Of a stretch of 64,000 bases of DNA, positions 9,001 to 15,000 are shown piece by piece; positions within the stretch are counted from its first letter, which is position 1, and every line of letters starts with the position of its first letter. This DNA is from Escherichia coli (GTDB lineage: Bacteria > Pseudomonadota > Gammaproteobacteria > Enterobacterales > Enterobacteriaceae): assembly GCF_022846255.1 (NCBI RefSeq), contig NZ_AP025682.1, one strand, 5' to 3'. The position numbers were made by a program.

Positions 9001-12000
9001 AAATACATTTGGAACTTATATTAAAAAGTGAAGGCCCTTATGAATTTTCGAAGATTAAAGAACTTTCAGGGCAATTACGACTTAAAGCTGAGTGGATCAA
9101 TGACACAACAGAAAAAATTGAGATAAAAACATCACATAGTGCTTGGCATTTTGATTATCATGTTCCTCAAATGGGGGATGGCGTAAATTCATTTACTCAT
9201 CCTCAATTCCATTTACAAAATGGAGGAAACAGGCTGACTGATAATTTAAATGACTATGGAGAGTTAATGATTCTTGATGCTCCAAGACTACCTTTACCTC
9301 CTATGGATGTGATATTAGCCATTGACTTTATTATTTCAAATTTCTTTGGTTCTATTTGGCAACAAGCATTATGTGATTCAGAATACATTGATGTAGTTAA
9401 AAGAGCACAAAAAGCATGGTGGAAACCTTATTATGAAGGTATAAGTCAACACTGGTCTGGCAATGGCTCAGGAATATCCAATATCCTAATTCCAAACCTT
9501 CTGTAGTGTATCAAAATCTGTTAACCATCTCCAATTACGAATAGCAATATTTATATAAAACTAATTTTTTATTTTAAACAACTTCAGCAAGGGCTAACTC
9601 TCAGCATCTCCTTCGGTGATACTTTGAGTTGCTCCTTGTTTTTTCGCCCTTTGGTTGAAAAAATTAAAAGCAAAACCAACCCTATACATTGACTTTTTCA
9701 GCATCTATCATATAAATAAAATAAGCATAATGGACATGCTTATTTTACTTTACTATATGAAAGGAGTTCATATGAATGATAGGAATCATACTTTTAATAA
9801 GTTCGAGCCATTCAGAAGTTGTAGCTATGAAAATTTTACTTCTGCTAAAACACTCTCCCAGCAGACACGTTCTCATTGTATTAGTATCAGATTAAATGAT
9901 GCCGAGTTATCTTACGTTGATGGCTTACGAGAAGATCTCAACCGTGCTGTTTGGATACGTATGTCAGCATTGAATCGTCTCCCTTCCAAAATTCCTGAAA
10001 TAAATCTAATTGTCTGGAAAGACCTTGCCAAAGCATCTCAGAATCTGAATAACCTCGTTCAGCATCTCAACACTAAATCACACGATAGTCCTTTTACTAT
10101 CACCGAAATTTATACGGTACAAAAAAGAATAAAAGCACTAAGAGATGCCCTTCTGTCAGCAAATCGATCTGTCAGTGATAAATAATGAAAGGGATGCAAA
10201 AAATCCGCAGAGGAAAGAGTTTTGCTGGTGTCGTCCTCTATGCGTTAAAGCCCGGTTCTCATCATAAAAAAGACCCTATCGTGATCGGTGGAAATATAAC
10301 GATAGTTGGCAATGCCGCTAAAGATCTGATCGCTGAATTTGATAGCACCAAACAGCTTCGCCCTGACGTGCAAAAGGCTGTTTGGCACAACTCGCTTCGC
10401 TTACCTAAAGGTGAATCACTAACGGCTAAACAGTGGTCTGAAATAGCAGATGATTACATGTCCCGCATGGGCTTCTCTGAAACGCATCTCAGATGCTACG
10501 TCCTACATGACGACGAAGATGGCCAGCACATCCATATCATCGCCAGCAGAGTGTCTCTTGATGCCGGAAAGCTCTACCTCGGCAGGAATGAGAACCTGGC
10601 AAGCACGAGAATAATTCAGCAACTTGAAAGAAATTACAATCTGACAAGAACCAAAGGGCCAGGAGCTAAAGCATCTACATCTTCTCTTTCCTCTAAACCG
10701 AAACATAAAAAATCACGTAATGAGGCTATGTTAGAGGAGAGAACTGGTGAACCATGCCCTAAATCCATCATCCAAAGGGCTATAGATTCGATAACATTAA
10801 ATCCTATAGCAATTGATGACTTCGTTGAAAAGCTGAATAGCATAGGGATTACGGCGAAAAGCAATATTTCTTCAACTGGCAAGATGAATGGATTTTCCTT
10901 TGAATGCAAAGGTGTTGTGTTCAAAGCTTCCCAGCTTGGCAAGAAGTATAGTTGGAAGAACCTGGAATCAATGATTTCAATGAATTACAACTCACACATT
11001 GGTGATGAAAAACCTGTCATCCCTGAACCTGCTGCCCATCGCAGCAACGAAGCTGTCATACCTATAGTGGAAGACTATTCTGATGAAAAGATTTACCCTG
11101 AGATAAGGGTACCCTTACCAAGACCTGACACAGCGCCCACAAAACCTACAAGCATGACAATGCGTTGGATCGCAACCATACCTTATCTTGTGAGTGTTAT
11201 TAGCGCACTTAAAACGATGCGTATCCCCTTTCTAAAGGCGTTCAATGGCCCAAGGAAGTTCTTTTCCGTGTCCATGATTCACCTGTCCTCTGTAAGCCTG
11301 AAACAGACCAAAACGAATAATTTCAAACCAAAAAGTTCCCACCAAAAGGCCCACAAGCCCCTTCTCCCCTGATTTCTCCACAGATAAACGATCGTTATAA
11401 TCGATCGATTTATTTATATTGATAGTCAATAACAATCAATAGGTAAATAATCGATCGGTACAAGCAATTTGCTATGTCCTTAGAAGTGTTCAAAATGTAC
11501 TTTCATGCATAAATCGGATAATAGGTTGATTTTACTAGCCTATTTTTCTATCCACGTATCGAACATGCAGGGACTGAAGTATGAGATATCTCATGATGAA
11601 GCGTGTAATGTTAGCAATCCTTCTTCCGTTTATTGTTGGATGTTTATTTGGTGCTAAAGCATTATCAGAGTATTGGGTTGTGTGGTTTTTTGTTTGTGCA
11701 ATGTTGATGATCACAGCCTGGGGCGTGTGGTTAAAAAATAAAAACAGAGGTTCCAGCTTCAGCTACCTGAATGATAATGAAGATGGTGTATTTATCTACA
11801 AATTTCATAATCAAGAGATGCGTTTAGATAAAGCCAAAAAAGAGCTTTATTTAAAAGATGGGTTAAACGAAAAAACCTACACTTTTTCCGATGTTGAAAG
11901 CTGGGAATATAAAATTAGCACAGGTGGTCAGATCCTCACTTCAGGTCTTAACCCTACAACTAACTTGATTAACAATAAGATTCTTGGTGAAAACATTAAT

Positions 12001-15000
12001 GACACCGGCTTCTTTATCAAAGTTAAAGACATCAGAAACCCTGAGTGGCATATTCGATTCTTCCCTCAAGAAGGATCTTATAAAGATCAGAGGGGATTAA
12101 TTAGCTTAAAAAAACAGATGATGCAGTGGATGACCGTTTTTGACTTAATCGTAAATGCTGATACAAAGTAAGGAAAACAAGAATGAAAAAAACCATGCTA
12201 CTATTATTAGCTTCAATGTCGCTGACAGGTTGCAACAGTGAACCATCCGATGCAGATATTTCAAAAGCCATGCAGAGCTTTATGAGTGAGATGCATGGTA
12301 CCCTGAACTCGTCTAAAAAACTTGCGTGTAAAGATATAGAGAGTGATGGCAGTTATCTCTGCTCTGTAGAGTTCGATGCTAAACTTCCAATCGTGGGCCA
12401 TAGAGAATCGACGCTAGAATTAAAGTTTATTAAATCCGATGACTCCTGGAAAGCAATGGCTCCATCTAAATAAACTTAATTATATTTGACAATAGAAAAA
12501 TAGTACGTCATAGATAGTAAATTGATAACAACCAGTGGGTTGAGCCACTGGCTGTTATCCCAATGGTTAATACACGGATGTACTAACCACCATTAAAAGG
12601 ATAAACAACATCACCTTTAATGCACGGGAGCGTTTTTTAGACATACGCCACTCCTTCTTTTTCATCATCAACCTTATTGTTGGTGATGTTGCCTCTTTGG
12701 GCTGATGCAGATTATCATTTTAGAATACTAAAAGCATCCTTTCGGATGCTTTTTTTCGCCTTGAAAATATTAGCAAGATAATAATCCATAAAGGATAATA
12801 TAAAAACCAAAATAATATGCTACGGTAGTTGTTATAAAAATCACATAAAACTACAGTCCATATTTTTTCCTTTTATCCTTCATCAATAATTCTCTTTTTA
12901 GGGTAGAAGCCTCATGTTTCCTTCTCTCATTAATATAGACTTTTTCGGTTCTACTACCATTGCTCACAATGAAATTGATAAGTGAAGAGCATACGTTTTT
13001 CATACGCTCTTTATCGAGCATGTCATTTTCAATATTATTGATATTGCAGTAATAAGAAAGTAGTAAAAAATTCAACACTACTTCCCTGTTTGAGAACGTT
13101 AGTTTTTCTATTTCAGGCTGGTATTTAATGTAGAACCCGGCACAAAACAGGTATGATTGTTCGATAATTTGTTGCTCTGAGAAGTCTGATTCAGAGAGTT
13201 TATCAACGAATCGATCAAGTAGAAGAAGATACCTTTCCATCAAATGAATATTTATTTTTTCCATAACATGCATCCTTGCAATTTATTTTGCCATCCTGAC
13301 AATTAAATAAATACCATAATTATTAATCACGTCAATAGTTAAAACCTATCTATTTTATTAAAGGTATTTTGCAGGTAACGGATTATTAAGTTCTTCAATC
13401 GTTATTTGTTTAAGGTGAGCATTATAAAGCCATACTTTGAACTGCTCTAAATAGCGTTCATTTAATGCCTTCAAAGCCTCATTTTCTGCTTCAAGTCTTC
13501 TAATTCGTTGAGAAGCCACTTTTAAATTAGCAGGTTTTACAGTATGTATTGCACCAGATTTGATAGTGGCCTTTTTCACACTGAAGCTTTCTGCAATCCT
13601 TACATGACTACTTAAGGATTGTCTTGATGGTCTTTTCCCAATAATCCTTACTAACCTGTCGCACAAAGCATCCCAGGTTAGTTTTTCATCTATAGACCAT
13701 GTGTTAATAACATCTACAATCTTCTTCTCATGATAACCATTTATATGCTTAGCCATTTATTCTCCTTTTTTTATTCTCTTATGGAATTCATACCATCTAT
13801 CAGCATTTATGTTCCCATCATTTTTATCATACAGTGTTCTTTTTGAAATTTTATCGTGAATTTTTGAAATCGTTTCGTTATCTAAACCAGAATTCTCAAT
13901 CGGATAATGTTCACACGGCTTAAACGCATATGAGTGCTTGCAGTAGCCATGTTTTGATACCAGTACTGCACCACTACTAAGTGAATCAAACTCATTAAGA
14001 ACCACCACTGGAATATCCTTTATTCTGTGCTCATTAACACACACTGATAACTTTTGTTCTCTTATTGCTTTAGACATTTGAAGATGCGATCTGTGGTCAT
14101 AAGAAAAATTTTGAGAAATAAGCTTACGTCCAGACCAGCGAGCAATACTAAACTCATCCATACCATTTATTTGAGCAAAAGTGTTGAGAAGATGCCTCAG
14201 TTGATGTGTTCTTAGCAAATATGGGCTACCATCATCATTTATATAACCATGTCTTTTAAATACATTTAAATATCCTTTTATATAATCAGAATCAACGATA
14301 TCAGTTTTAAAAAAATTCGTTGTAGGTCTGAATAACTTATCTAACATTTCCTTTTTATTTTGATTTAACTGTCCTTCAGTTAACAAGCAAAGCGCATTAG
14401 AATATTTGATTTTCTTCTCTCTATCATACCAAAAGAGATCTGGAGGTATATTTTCTTTAAGGGTTCCCATCGTTGAATTAGAGTAATTCTTTTGAATTTC
14501 AGCAGCCAATAATCTCGCTTGACTTGATAATTCTTTTAATCTGCTAATAGCCTTTTTTGCTACAGGTATCATTAAAGTTGGAATCCATTTTATATTGCCT
14601 TCATACCCTTTTGCTGAAAAAAATCTTAAACCGTATCTTTGAATGCCCTTTCCATCACATTCTGTAATTTCACAATCCACTGGCAAAGCTAAAATTTCCG
14701 ATATCCTACTCGGTGCACACATAAGTAAAGCAAGCACAGATGTAGTAAATATATCTCTTGACGATAATTGTTCATCCCGCTTTGAAAAAATCTCAGCAAT
14801 CGCAATAACTGATTTGATATCAGGCAATCTAGAATGGCCTTCCAGTGAAGAATCATAACCAGTCCAAGACTGAGTAATCCTATACCTAATTGGACTTATC
14901 CAAAATAAATAAGATGAGTTAGTCATCCTATTATCATTTAAAAATGAACTCAATTTCTCAAGTTCTTTCCCAATAGCAAATGCATGTGCTTTAGAATACT

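What the first reader, a model, noticed from the sequence alone, without database searches (positions are those of the whole stretch)
11581..12473. Small membrane protein and lipoprotein cargo pair of unknown function
Two adjacent same-strand genes, one with N-terminal transmembrane helices and one with a clear lipobox, lie between the mobilisation and recombinase modules. Such pairs on islands are often entry-exclusion, immunity or envelope-modifying functions. Nothing in the sequence tells which.
Basis: inference. Interest (0 to 1): 0.3.

Follow-up and report, generated by a model that had tools for sequence, protein, structure and literature searches.

The report
Membrane PH-domain protein plus lipoprotein operon
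Two real, co-transcribed envelope genes of unknown function sit inside the transfer (mobilisation) module of a mobile E. coli genomic island; they are most plausibly a two-layer barrier against incoming foreign DNA, but no experiment or homology yet shows this.

Summary
ORF1 (11581-12171, 196 aa) and ORF2 (12183-12473, 96 aa) are real genes 11 nt apart, both under purifying selection (dN/dS 0.10-0.22).

"Cargo" is only half right. The island is a GInt-type element (three tandem recombinases) that also carries mobC, a relaxase and an oriT-like site. In at least 16 Enterobacterales species DUF4755 follows the relaxase and co-diverges with it. The lipoprotein occupies a semi-variable slot just downstream. 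That slot may hold ORF2's family, a BamE-like lipoprotein, both, another lipoprotein, defence genes, or nothing.

DUF4755 genes lie next to at least five unrelated lipoprotein families in different lineages, and each partner also occurs alone. ORF2 homologues sit on IncF and IncI conjugative plasmids. BamE-like homologues are prophage morons.

Best reading (about 0.3): two independently acting exclusion-type barriers, analogous to TraS/TraT or EexC/Sfx. No literature mentions DUF4755.

The parts
11581..12171 (+). ORF1: 196-aa inner-membrane protein. It has an N-terminal two-helix hairpin (about residues 9-27 and 31-51) and a C-terminal DUF4755 domain with a PH/PTB-like fold, predicted to be cytoplasmic.
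12183..12473 (+). ORF2 ('lipoA'): 96-aa lipoprotein precursor with lipobox LTGC (Cys17) and Asn at +2. The mature 79-aa domain is one helix plus a four-stranded sheet, with an invariant Cys49/Cys60 pair.
11388..11500 (+). Conserved non-coding block between the relaxase stop and ORF1. It contains two CGATCG motifs (11388-11409), a TGATAG-N7-(C)AATCA palindrome (11420-11438), ATCGATCGGTACAAG (11450-11464), and a candidate -35 (11467-11476) and -10 (11491-11500). It is the probable operator and promoter of the ORF1-ORF2 operon.
   Evidence: Alignment of 16 loci. The motifs are at least 80% conserved although the flanking proteins are only 31-66% identical, and they are present whichever envelope gene follows. 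Coordinates. The promoter assignment is inference.
12524..12559 (.). Hairpin with a 15-bp stem downstream of ORF2, between convergent transcription units.
   Evidence: Terminator scan and sequence.
12734..12756 (+). Canonical stem-loop plus T7 run (GCATCC-TTTC-GGATGC-TTTTTTT). It is the likely final terminator for plus-strand transcription.
   Evidence: Read directly from the sequence.
9586..9663 (+). oriT-like element of the same mobilisation module: an inverted repeat AGCAAGGGCTAACTC...GAGTTgcTCCTTG followed by a TTTTTCGCCCTTTGGTTGAAAAA box, then the mobC promoter.
   Evidence: Conserved in 14 of 16 aligned loci. Coordinates. The function is inferred from position and form.
9772..10185 (+). 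mobC-like relaxosome accessory gene (weak NikA-like hit in a homologue).
10185..11372 (+). Relaxase with a MobA/VirD2-like nuclease domain.
   Evidence: Pfam PF03432 E 1.6e-26. NCBIfam TraI_MobP/MobB hits below cutoff.
12851..13273 (-). 140-aa protein of unknown function, convergent with the pair and co-inherited with the mobilisation block.
   Evidence: Its identity tracks the relaxase and DUF4755, not the recombinases.
13358..17905 (-). GInt-type recombination operon: ginA-like (16700-17905), ginB-like (15385-16710), ginC-like (13757-15388) and ginD-like (13358-13756).
   Evidence: Pfam Phage_integrase hits in two of the three large genes. The organisation matches the GInt description in PMC5385486.

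Best explanation
ORF1 and ORF2 form a two-gene operon with its own conserved operator and promoter. The operon belongs to the mobilisation module (oriT-like site, mobC, relaxase, ORF1, ORF2, 140-aa gene) of a GInt-type mobilisable island at tRNA-Leu.

Shown:
- ORF1 places a PH/PTB-like protein- or ligand-binding domain on the cytoplasmic face of the inner membrane through a two-helix hairpin.
- ORF2 places a small disulfide-stabilised cystatin/NTF2-like domain in the periplasm on a lipid anchor.

Inferred mechanism: the two proteins act independently, at two layers of the envelope of the cell that carries the island, to hinder entry of foreign DNA. The lipoprotein would act at the outer-membrane or periplasmic stage, and the PH-domain protein at the inner-membrane or cytoplasmic stage. 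This is the logic of TraT/TraS (F plasmid), Sfx/EexC (IncC), EexB/EexA (R27) and Sp/Imm (phage T4). The evidence does not resolve whether the excluded agent is a conjugative helper system or a phage.
For: 1. Envelope localisation of both products: hydropathy and positive-inside analysis, plus the lipobox. In a single-TM family variant (Avibacterium) the basic cluster again directly precedes the PH domain.
2. Residence in the transfer module. In every locus with enough flank the order is mobC, relaxase, DUF4755. Identities of DUF4755, relaxase, ORF2 and the 140-aa gene co-vary and are decoupled from the recombinase block.
3. The gene or genes after the conserved regulatory block are always envelope proteins: DUF4755, another hairpin protein, a BamE-like lipoprotein or ORF2's family.
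4. Independent assortment of the partners. This is expected if each acts alone, as in the known two-tier exclusion systems.
5. DUF4755 is adjacent to at least five unrelated lipoprotein families, plus one uncertain case (L026, atypical lipobox), in about 10 of 17 lineages examined. With an assumed background of about 5%, my own binomial estimate gives P well below 1e-4.
6. ORF2's family has true homologues on IncF and IncI1 conjugative plasmids (34 of 36 plasmid hits are on plasmids typed conjugative; hhalign 99.2%). The slot-equivalent BamE-like lipoprotein has homologues as prophage morons, one beside cI in Salmonella phage S107, and on 127 plasmids.
7. Precedents from papers. Rivard et al. 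2024 (PMC11493245) show that IMEs carry functional orphan exclusion lipoproteins (Sfx). They also cite work showing that entry-exclusion determinants can be cytoplasmic, and report that ColE1's mob gene mbeD mildly inhibits transfer.
8. Both genes are under purifying selection.
Against: - There is no sequence or fold similarity to any characterised exclusion protein. Pfam, NCBIfam, PHROGs and PADLOC give nothing beyond DUF4755 and signal-peptide-only matches. PDB sequence searches are empty.
- The island has no mating-pair-formation genes that could supply a cognate target.
- DUF4755 also occurs where no transfer genes are near: Pasteurellaceae and Janthinobacterium chromosomes, small ColE1-like plasmids, and a Kluyvera-derived ISEcp1 unit. 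It keeps a strongly conserved DIxNPEW motif across these taxa. That fits a conserved host ligand better than a plasmid-specific target.
- There is no signal of diversifying selection over whole genes.
- ORF1 has almost no periplasmic exposure, so any recognition must be cytoplasmic or within the membrane.
- No phage genome encodes DUF4755 or ORF2's family.
Confidence: 0.3

Rival explanations
1. ORF1 is a donor-side transfer accessory. Its membrane-tethered PH-like domain docks the relaxase-DNA complex or a helper plasmid's coupling protein at the inner membrane. To my recollection MobB of R1162/RSF1010 does something similar (not checked here). The lipoprotein would be an unrelated moron.
For: Strict synteny directly after the relaxase and co-divergence with it. 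The cytoplasmic PH/PTB-like fold is typical of protein- and peptide-binding adaptors. It is anchored where coupling proteins sit.
Against: The mobilisation module exists without it (Dickeya L034) or with a different protein in its place (Pectobacterium L031-33). It has its own promoter block and a 208-bp gap from the relaxase rather than translational coupling. Family members occur on plasmids and chromosomes with no relaxase. This model does not explain the lipoprotein association.
Confidence: 0.15
2. ORF1 is a stand-alone abortive-infection or defence effector. A cytoplasmic sensor domain is fused to a two-helix membrane hairpin that disrupts the membrane when triggered. As I recall it, this is the architectural logic of CBASS Cap15 or Pycsar TM effectors (not checked here). 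The lipoprotein would be a separate receptor-masking or injection-blocking factor.
For: GInt cargo slots on both sides are filled with defence systems: a restriction-modification-like set here, and Thoeris, E1/E2/JAB, reverse transcriptase, OLD, UvrD and PIN elsewhere. DUF4755 is the sole evident cargo of small ColE1-like plasmids. The 2TM plus beta-rich domain architecture fits. BamE-like slot-mates are prophage morons beside cI.
Confidence: 0.15
3. The genes are orphan immunity proteins against envelope-targeting interbacterial toxins (bacteriocins or type VI effectors), carried by the island to protect its host.
Confidence: 0.1
4. The genes are an envelope-fitness or host-interaction function, such as serum resistance or stress tolerance (as I recall for TraT, Bor and OsmE-type lipoproteins), with no role in DNA entry.
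For: ORF2 homologues sit next to hha in accessory regions of IncF and IncI plasmids rather than inside tra operons. BamE/OsmE-like lipoproteins are slot-mates.
Against: This does not explain the conserved placement in the mobilisation module. It also does not explain the shared regulatory block or the recurrent pairing with a cytoplasmic PH-domain protein.
Confidence: 0.1

Closest known systems
TraS/TraT of F-like plasmids, and EexC/Sfx of IncC plasmids (two-tier entry and surface exclusion)
   Same: An inner-membrane protein gene lies beside an outer-membrane or periplasmic lipoprotein gene on a transmissible element. The two act (there) or assort (here) independently. IMEs are known to carry orphan exclusion lipoproteins (PMC11493245).
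   Different: No sequence or fold relationship was detected. ORF2 is 96 aa, against about 290 aa for Sfx. There is no mating-pair-formation gene on the island to serve as a cognate target. No exclusion phenotype has been tested.
Pfam DUF4755 (PF15947)
   Same: ORF1 is a full-length member (E 1.6e-36). All 67 aligned relatives match the family.
   Different: The family has no assigned function and no mention in 8 million full texts. The PH-like fold, the cytoplasmic topology, the mobilisation-module residence and the lipoprotein association were all worked out here.
Bacterial membrane-anchored PH-like domains (bPH families such as YdbS/YdbT) and eukaryotic PH/PTB/FERM-F3 domains
   Different: Only one of 67 members gives even a weak bPH_3 hit (E 0.006). 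There is an extra glycine-rich insertion with a helix (residues about 112-141, pLDDT about 73).
GInt islands (ginABCD; Bardaji et al. 2017)
   Same: Three tandem recombinase-like genes plus a small fourth gene at one end, followed by cargo. The host genera match the reported distribution: Pectobacterium, Pantoea, Escherichia.
   Different: The Enterobacterales elements here also carry a conserved oriT-like site, mobC, a relaxase and DUF4755. The papers I read call GInts putatively non-mobilisable or of unclear mobilisation.
ColE1 mbeD (a mob-operon gene reported to inhibit entry of related plasmids)
   Same: An envelope-associated product encoded within or next to the mobilisation genes of a non-self-transmissible element.
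   Different: No homology was detected in the HMM libraries. The exclusion role of mbeD is itself described as unclear.

Membership tests
Pfam DUF4755 (PF15947) | Match to the family HMM above the gathering score (27 bits) | tested here: met
   125.6 bits, E 1.6e-36, residues 62-188 covering profile positions 2-127 of 129.
PH-like fold superfamily | Two orthogonal antiparallel sheets (about seven strands) closed by a C-terminal helix | tested here: met
Bacterial lipoproteins (signal peptidase II substrates) | Basic n-region, hydrophobic h-region, lipobox [LVI][ASTVI][GAS]C with Cys at about 15-25 | tested here: met
   MKK-TMLLLLASMS-LTGC17. G16 and C17 are invariant in 23 homologues. Lipidation itself cannot be tested with these tools.
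Bacterial lipoproteins: membrane sorting | Residue at +2 (Asp means inner-membrane retention in Enterobacteria) | tested here: inconclusive
   Asn at +2 in the window clade. Asp at +2 in the Brenneria, Pectobacterium and Dickeya clade. The final membrane is therefore uncertain.
Characterised exclusion proteins (TraT, TraS, TrbK, Eex, ExcA) | Sequence membership in the respective protein families | tested here: not met
   Pfam and NCBIfam scans of both ORFs return no such family. PHROG hits for ORF2 (for example Cor, E 0.011) cover only the signal peptide. Sfx was not compared directly.
Characterised exclusion systems | Exclusion gene adjacent to, or on the same element as, its mating-pair-formation target (TraG/VirB6/TraN/TraY) | tested here: not met
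   No MPF gene lies in the island, about 3000-21000. Orphan Sfx on IMEs shows that this feature is not universal.
Characterised exclusion systems | Reduced DNA acquisition when the gene is expressed in the recipient | not testable with these tools
   Requires mating assays.
Known anti-phage defence systems (PADLOC-DB v2) | Match to a defence-protein HMM | tested here: not met
   No family for either ORF at E up to 0.1.
GInt elements (context of the pair) | Three consecutive tyrosine-recombinase-like genes plus a short fourth gene at one end of an island | tested here: met
   Genes of 401, 441, 543 and 132 aa in tandem on the minus strand. Phage_integrase hits in the first two, none in the third, as reported for GinC. 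Direct sequence comparison with Pseudomonas GinA-D was not done.
Cystatin-like / NTF2-like (VirB8-like) folds, for ORF2 | An N-terminal helix packed on a curved antiparallel sheet, with a significant structural match | tested here: inconclusive

The most novel reading that the evidence does not exclude
DUF4755 proteins and their interchangeable neighbouring lipoproteins define a previously unrecognised, widespread class of envelope module carried by mobile elements. In it, a membrane-tethered cytoplasmic PH-like domain and a periplasmic lipoprotein together gate DNA entry, whether by conjugation or by phage. Its presence in a conserved oriT-relaxase module would also show that Enterobacterales GInt islands, so far described as non-mobilisable defence carriers, are mobilisable elements with their own exclusion or establishment function.
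Probability: 0.15. Interest if true: 0.65.

Novelty: new variant of a known kind. Interest (0 to 1): 0.4.

Why it matters
If the pair is an exclusion or barrier module, it would add two structurally new protein types to the short list of exclusion factors: a PH-like inner-membrane protein and a cystatin/NTF2-like lipoprotein. It would also extend the 2024 finding that mobilisable islands exert exclusion.

Two results stand regardless of function. First, an orphan Pfam family (DUF4755) now has a fold, a topology and a reproducible genomic context. Second, the defence-carrying GInt islands of E. coli, Pectobacterium, Pantoea and Erwinia turn out to carry a conserved mobilisation module. This bears on the open question of how these islands spread.

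Tried and rejected
- Literature: no paper contains "DUF4755" or "PF15947".
- Databases: PADLOC gives nothing for either ORF, and PHROGs gives only signal-peptide matches for ORF2. PDB sequence searches give only chance-level hits. Rfam finds nothing significant around the pair.
The afdb50 library was unavailable. The BFVD search for ORF2 gave no hit at E 0.001 or better.
- T4SS link rejected: DUF4755 lies next to VirB-type genes on IncC plasmids. However, it and its lipoprotein neighbour sit beside the ISEcp1-blaKLUC-5-wbuC unit, between two uniquely annotated flanking genes. I infer from this that they were captured from a Kluyvera chromosome.
- IncI1 protein rejected: the 139-aa protein after traY on an IncI1 plasmid looked like a TM-less DUF4755 relative by eye, but hhalign gives probability 0.3%.
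- PH_gly_zipper lead dropped: the precomputed faint hit for one family member was not reproduced.
- Diversifying selection not seen: no whole-gene signal.
- Relaxase C-terminus: it does not co-vary with the presence or absence of DUF4755.
- Distant DUF4755 members on short metagenomic contigs gave little context.
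Full report
**1. 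The observation**

The window contains two adjacent plus-strand ORFs exactly as reported: 11581..12171 (196 aa) and 12183..12473 (96 aa), 11 nt apart.

ORF1 has two hydrophobic segments (about residues 9-27 and 31-51). Basic residues sit at the N-terminus (R2, K7, R8) and just after the second segment (K52, K54, R56), and the connecting loop is short and near-neutral.

ORF2 starts MKKTMLLLLASMSLTGC, a textbook lipoprotein signal with Cys17.

Both are annotated in the one complete E. coli genome, out of 5,426, that carries this DNA (strain TUM11353, 99.6% identity). ORF1 is called a "DUF4755 domain-containing protein" and ORF2 a "hypothetical protein". Pairwise dN/dS against two related elements is 0.14-0.22 for ORF1 and 0.10-0.18 for ORF2, so both are functional coding genes.

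**2. What the proteins are**

ORF1:
- It matches Pfam DUF4755 at E 1.6e-36.
- An exhaustive HMMER scan of 1.84 billion cluster representatives finds only 170 clusters at E 0.001 or better. Nearly all are 150-210 aa with the same architecture.
- W156 is invariant. L91, W108, G143, D150, P154 and W183 are nearly so, within a GFFI.V.DI.NPEW.I.F motif.
- An AlphaFold model built on 67 relatives has pLDDT 90.4. It shows a helical hairpin, a beta-sandwich with a glycine-rich insertion, and a C-terminal helix.
- By the positive-inside rule the PH-like domain is cytoplasmic. A single-TM family variant (Avibacterium) keeps the basic cluster directly before the PH domain.
- No paper in the searchable library mentions DUF4755 or PF15947.

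ORF2:
- It has no Pfam, NCBIfam or PADLOC family.
- Its relatives (40-100% identity) are confined to Enterobacterales. They share an invariant lipobox Gly-Cys and two further invariant cysteines, C49 and C60.
- The model (mature part pLDDT about 90) is one helix on a four-stranded sheet.
- The +2 residue is Asn here but Asp in the Pectobacterium and Dickeya clade, so the final membrane is uncertain.

**3. Context: not simple cargo**

The low-GC island (about 3000-21000) abuts tRNA-Leu(CAA). Its minus-strand genes of 401, 441, 543 and 132 aa have the organisation of a GInt ginABCD operon.

Upstream of the pair lie a mobC-like gene and a MobA/VirD2-type relaxase. They are preceded by a conserved inverted repeat plus a CGCCCTT box that looks like an oriT, at 9586-9663.

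I retrieved related loci from 16 GTDB species, plus loci found through exact protein look-ups. In every locus with enough flank the order is the same: mobC, relaxase, DUF4755, a variable slot, then the 140-aa gene and the four recombination genes on the other strand.

Percent identities show that mobC, relaxase, DUF4755, ORF2 and the 140-aa gene co-vary as one block. The recombinase block varies independently. For example, in L004 the values are 79, 94, 83 and 81% for the relaxase, DUF4755, ORF2 and the 140-aa gene (mobC itself is only 45%), against 30-35% for the recombinases. In L009 they are 53, 49 and 47% against 56-70%.

ORF1 is therefore a long-term resident of the mobilisation module.

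**4. The slot after DUF4755**

The slot contents differ between loci:

| Slot content | Loci |
|---|---|
| ORF2's family ("lipoA") | window clade |
| BamE-like ~125-aa lipoprotein ("lipoB") | Pectobacterium, Yersinia, a gut metagenome (there overlapping the DUF4755 stop) |
| lipoB and lipoA together | Brenneria |
| A third lipoprotein | Erwinia sp. S63 |
| Nothing (52-467 bp) | Citrobacter, Pluralibacter, Pantoea coffeiphila |
| 1.6-6 kb of defence-type genes (OLD-like ATPase, UvrD-like helicase and others) | L015-L020, L023 |

In Dickeya the relaxase is followed directly by lipoB and lipoA with no DUF4755. In several Pectobacterium genomes a different membrane protein replaces DUF4755; it shares only the first hairpin. 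The partners therefore assort independently.

**5. A recurrent DUF4755-lipoprotein association**

The same pattern appears outside GInts:
- A Kluyvera-derived segment on IncC plasmids has a 176-aa lipoprotein 46 nt upstream of a 25%-identical DUF4755. That lipoprotein is homologous to the Erwinia slot lipoprotein (E 5e-7).
- Avibacterium has two lipoproteins upstream.
- A Pasteurellaceae genome has an 89-aa lipoprotein 42 nt downstream.
- One metagenomic contig has a probable lipoprotein 14 nt downstream; its lipobox is atypical.
- Other contexts have none: small ColE1-like plasmids where DUF4755 is the only evident cargo, a Klebsiella plasmid, Janthinobacterium, and another metagenomic lineage.

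Roughly 10 of 17 lineages, involving at least five unrelated lipoprotein families plus that uncertain case, show adjacency. With an assumed 5% background, my rough binomial estimate is far below 1e-4. The lineages are not fully independent, so this is indicative only.

**6. Relatives of the lipoproteins on other mobile elements**

ORF2's family has genuine distant homologues: hhalign probability 99.2%, the same cysteine pair, and a lipobox LLSGC. They are found on 36 Escherichia plasmids, 34 of them typed conjugative, always just downstream of hha. On IncF this is between finO and repA. On an IncI1 plasmid it is between traY and trbA.

lipoB has 40-43%-identical homologues in temperate phages. 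In one it lies between cI and N in Salmonella phage S107, and in others beside tail genes after an antirepressor. It is also found on 127 plasmids, 94 of them typed conjugative.

Neither DUF4755 nor ORF2's family is found in phage genomes.

**7. Regulation**

The 208-bp gap between the relaxase and ORF1 contains a block that is at least 80% conserved across loci whose proteins are only 31-66% identical. It is present whichever envelope gene follows. The block comprises:
- two CGATCG motifs;
- a TGATAG-N7-CTATCA palindrome;
- ATCGATCGGTACAAG;
- candidate -35 and -10 elements.

I read it as the operator and promoter of the envelope operon. The GATC content is about five times the island average. 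Whether that reflects Dam or SeqA control is speculation.

A 15-bp-stem hairpin (12524-12559) and a canonical terminator (12734-12756) follow ORF2.

**8. Mechanism**

The anatomy is shown:
- a cytoplasmic PH-like binding module held at the inner membrane, with almost no periplasmic exposure;
- a small disulfide-bonded periplasmic lipoprotein;
- one operon with a dedicated, conserved control region inside a mobilisation module;
- independent assortment of the two genes;
- relatives of the lipoproteins on conjugative plasmids and prophages.

The function is inferred. The best fit is a pair of independently acting barriers to incoming DNA at two envelope layers. This design is known from TraT/TraS, Sfx/EexC and EexB/EexA and, as I recall, from T4 Sp/Imm. 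Rivard et al. 2024 showed that IMEs can carry functional orphan exclusion lipoproteins. They also cite evidence that exclusion determinants can be cytoplasmic.

Several points count against this reading:
- There is no homology to any known exclusion factor.
- The island has no MPF target gene.
- DUF4755 occurs in places with no transfer genes, and its motif is conserved across distant taxa.
- There is no signal of diversifying selection.

I put this explanation at about 0.3. The rivals are:
- a donor-side MobB-like docking factor (0.15);
- an abortive-infection membrane effector (0.15);
- orphan immunity to envelope toxins (0.1);
- an envelope-fitness function (0.1).

The remainder is something not yet imagined.

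**9. Comparison and novelty**

ORF1 is a member of DUF4755 and has a PH-like fold. ORF2 is a lipoprotein of an unnamed family restricted to mobile elements. Neither is a member of any characterised exclusion, defence or immunity family.

If the exclusion reading is right, this is a structurally new variant of a known kind of system.

The finding is of moderate interest. The pair itself remains functionally unproven. The work does give an orphan family a fold, a topology and a reproducible context. It also shows that Enterobacterales GInts carry a conserved mobilisation module, although the papers I read describe GInts as defence-carrying islands with unclear or absent mobilisation.

Noticed in passing
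window 9586-11372, with 13358-17905: The island is a GInt-type element (three tandem recombinase-like genes plus a small fourth gene). It also carries a conserved oriT-like inverted repeat with a CGCCCTT box, a mobC-like gene and a relaxase. The same module is present in at least 16 Enterobacterales species. The GInt papers I read never mention a relaxase and call GInts putatively non-mobilisable or of unclear mobilisation.
   Followed up: partly
window 11388-11500: A non-coding block after the relaxase stop is at least 80% conserved across loci whose proteins are 31-66% identical. It holds two CGATCG motifs, a TGATAG-N7-CTATCA-type palindrome and ATCGATCGGTACAAG. GATC density is about five times the island average. 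It is probably an operator and promoter; the binding factor is unknown.
   Followed up: partly
window 12567-12671 (minus strand): A 34-aa ORF, MMMKKKEWRMSKKRSRALKVMLFILLMVVSTSVY, has a basic head and a hydrophobic tail and is followed by the 15-bp-stem hairpin at 12524-12559. The hydrophobic tail is conserved (70% over 23 aa) in related elements. It could be a small membrane peptide or a type-I-toxin-like gene. No Rfam or Pfam match.
   Followed up: partly
window 3686-9506: The cargo upstream of mobC comprises a type II N6-adenine methyltransferase (PADLOC MTase_II, E 2e-89), a 769-aa GHKL-ATPase protein with a weak REase_II hit, and two unknown proteins (373 and 247 aa). This is a likely restriction-modification-like defence set. 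Other GInts carry Thoeris, E1/E2/JAB, a reverse transcriptase, OLD-like, UvrD-like and PIN genes in the equivalent slots.
   Followed up: partly
window 11581-12171 versus L004 9399-9989: Synonymous divergence of the DUF4755 gene between the window and L004 (dS 0.12) is far lower than that of the flanking relaxase, ORF2 and 140-aa gene (dS 0.7-0.9). This indicates a recent recombinational exchange of just this gene between elements.
   Followed up: no
L045 6950-7306, L047 6950-7306, L046 6959-7306: A 115-118-aa lipoprotein homologous to ORF2 (hhalign 99.2%) lies just downstream of hha on the IncI1 plasmid (L045) and the conjugative IncF plasmid (L047) inspected; on a third, IncFIA/FIB/FIC plasmid (L046) no hha is annotated beside it. 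On the IncI1 plasmid it falls between traY and trbA; as I recall, R64 carries excA there (not checked). No function is annotated.
   Followed up: partly
L049 5001-5381, L048 4941-5381, L050 7001-7381: The BamE-like lipoprotein that replaces or accompanies ORF2 in other GInts has 40-43%-identical homologues as morons in temperate phages. One lies between cI and N in Salmonella phage S107. Others sit after an antirepressor or KilA-N gene beside tail genes in a Klebsiella phage and a phage-like plasmid.
   Followed up: partly
window 1949-2818 and 19593-20840 (minus strand): A full P4-type integrase lies next to tRNA-Leu, and a truncated paralogue (289 aa, lacking the catalytic domain) lies at the far side of the island. 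DUF6387 and AlpA-like genes sit between the integrase and ginA, as in several other loci. The GInt may be nested in, or fused with, a tRNA-Leu integrase island.
   Followed up: no
L035 and L037 (small ColE1-like plasmids, 5.7-7 kb): A DUF4755 gene 25% identical to ORF1 is the only evident cargo of small Rop-type plasmids in Enterobacter, Klebsiella and Serratia. It is flanked by IS1-like fragments and sits near a CopG-family gene.
   Followed up: partly
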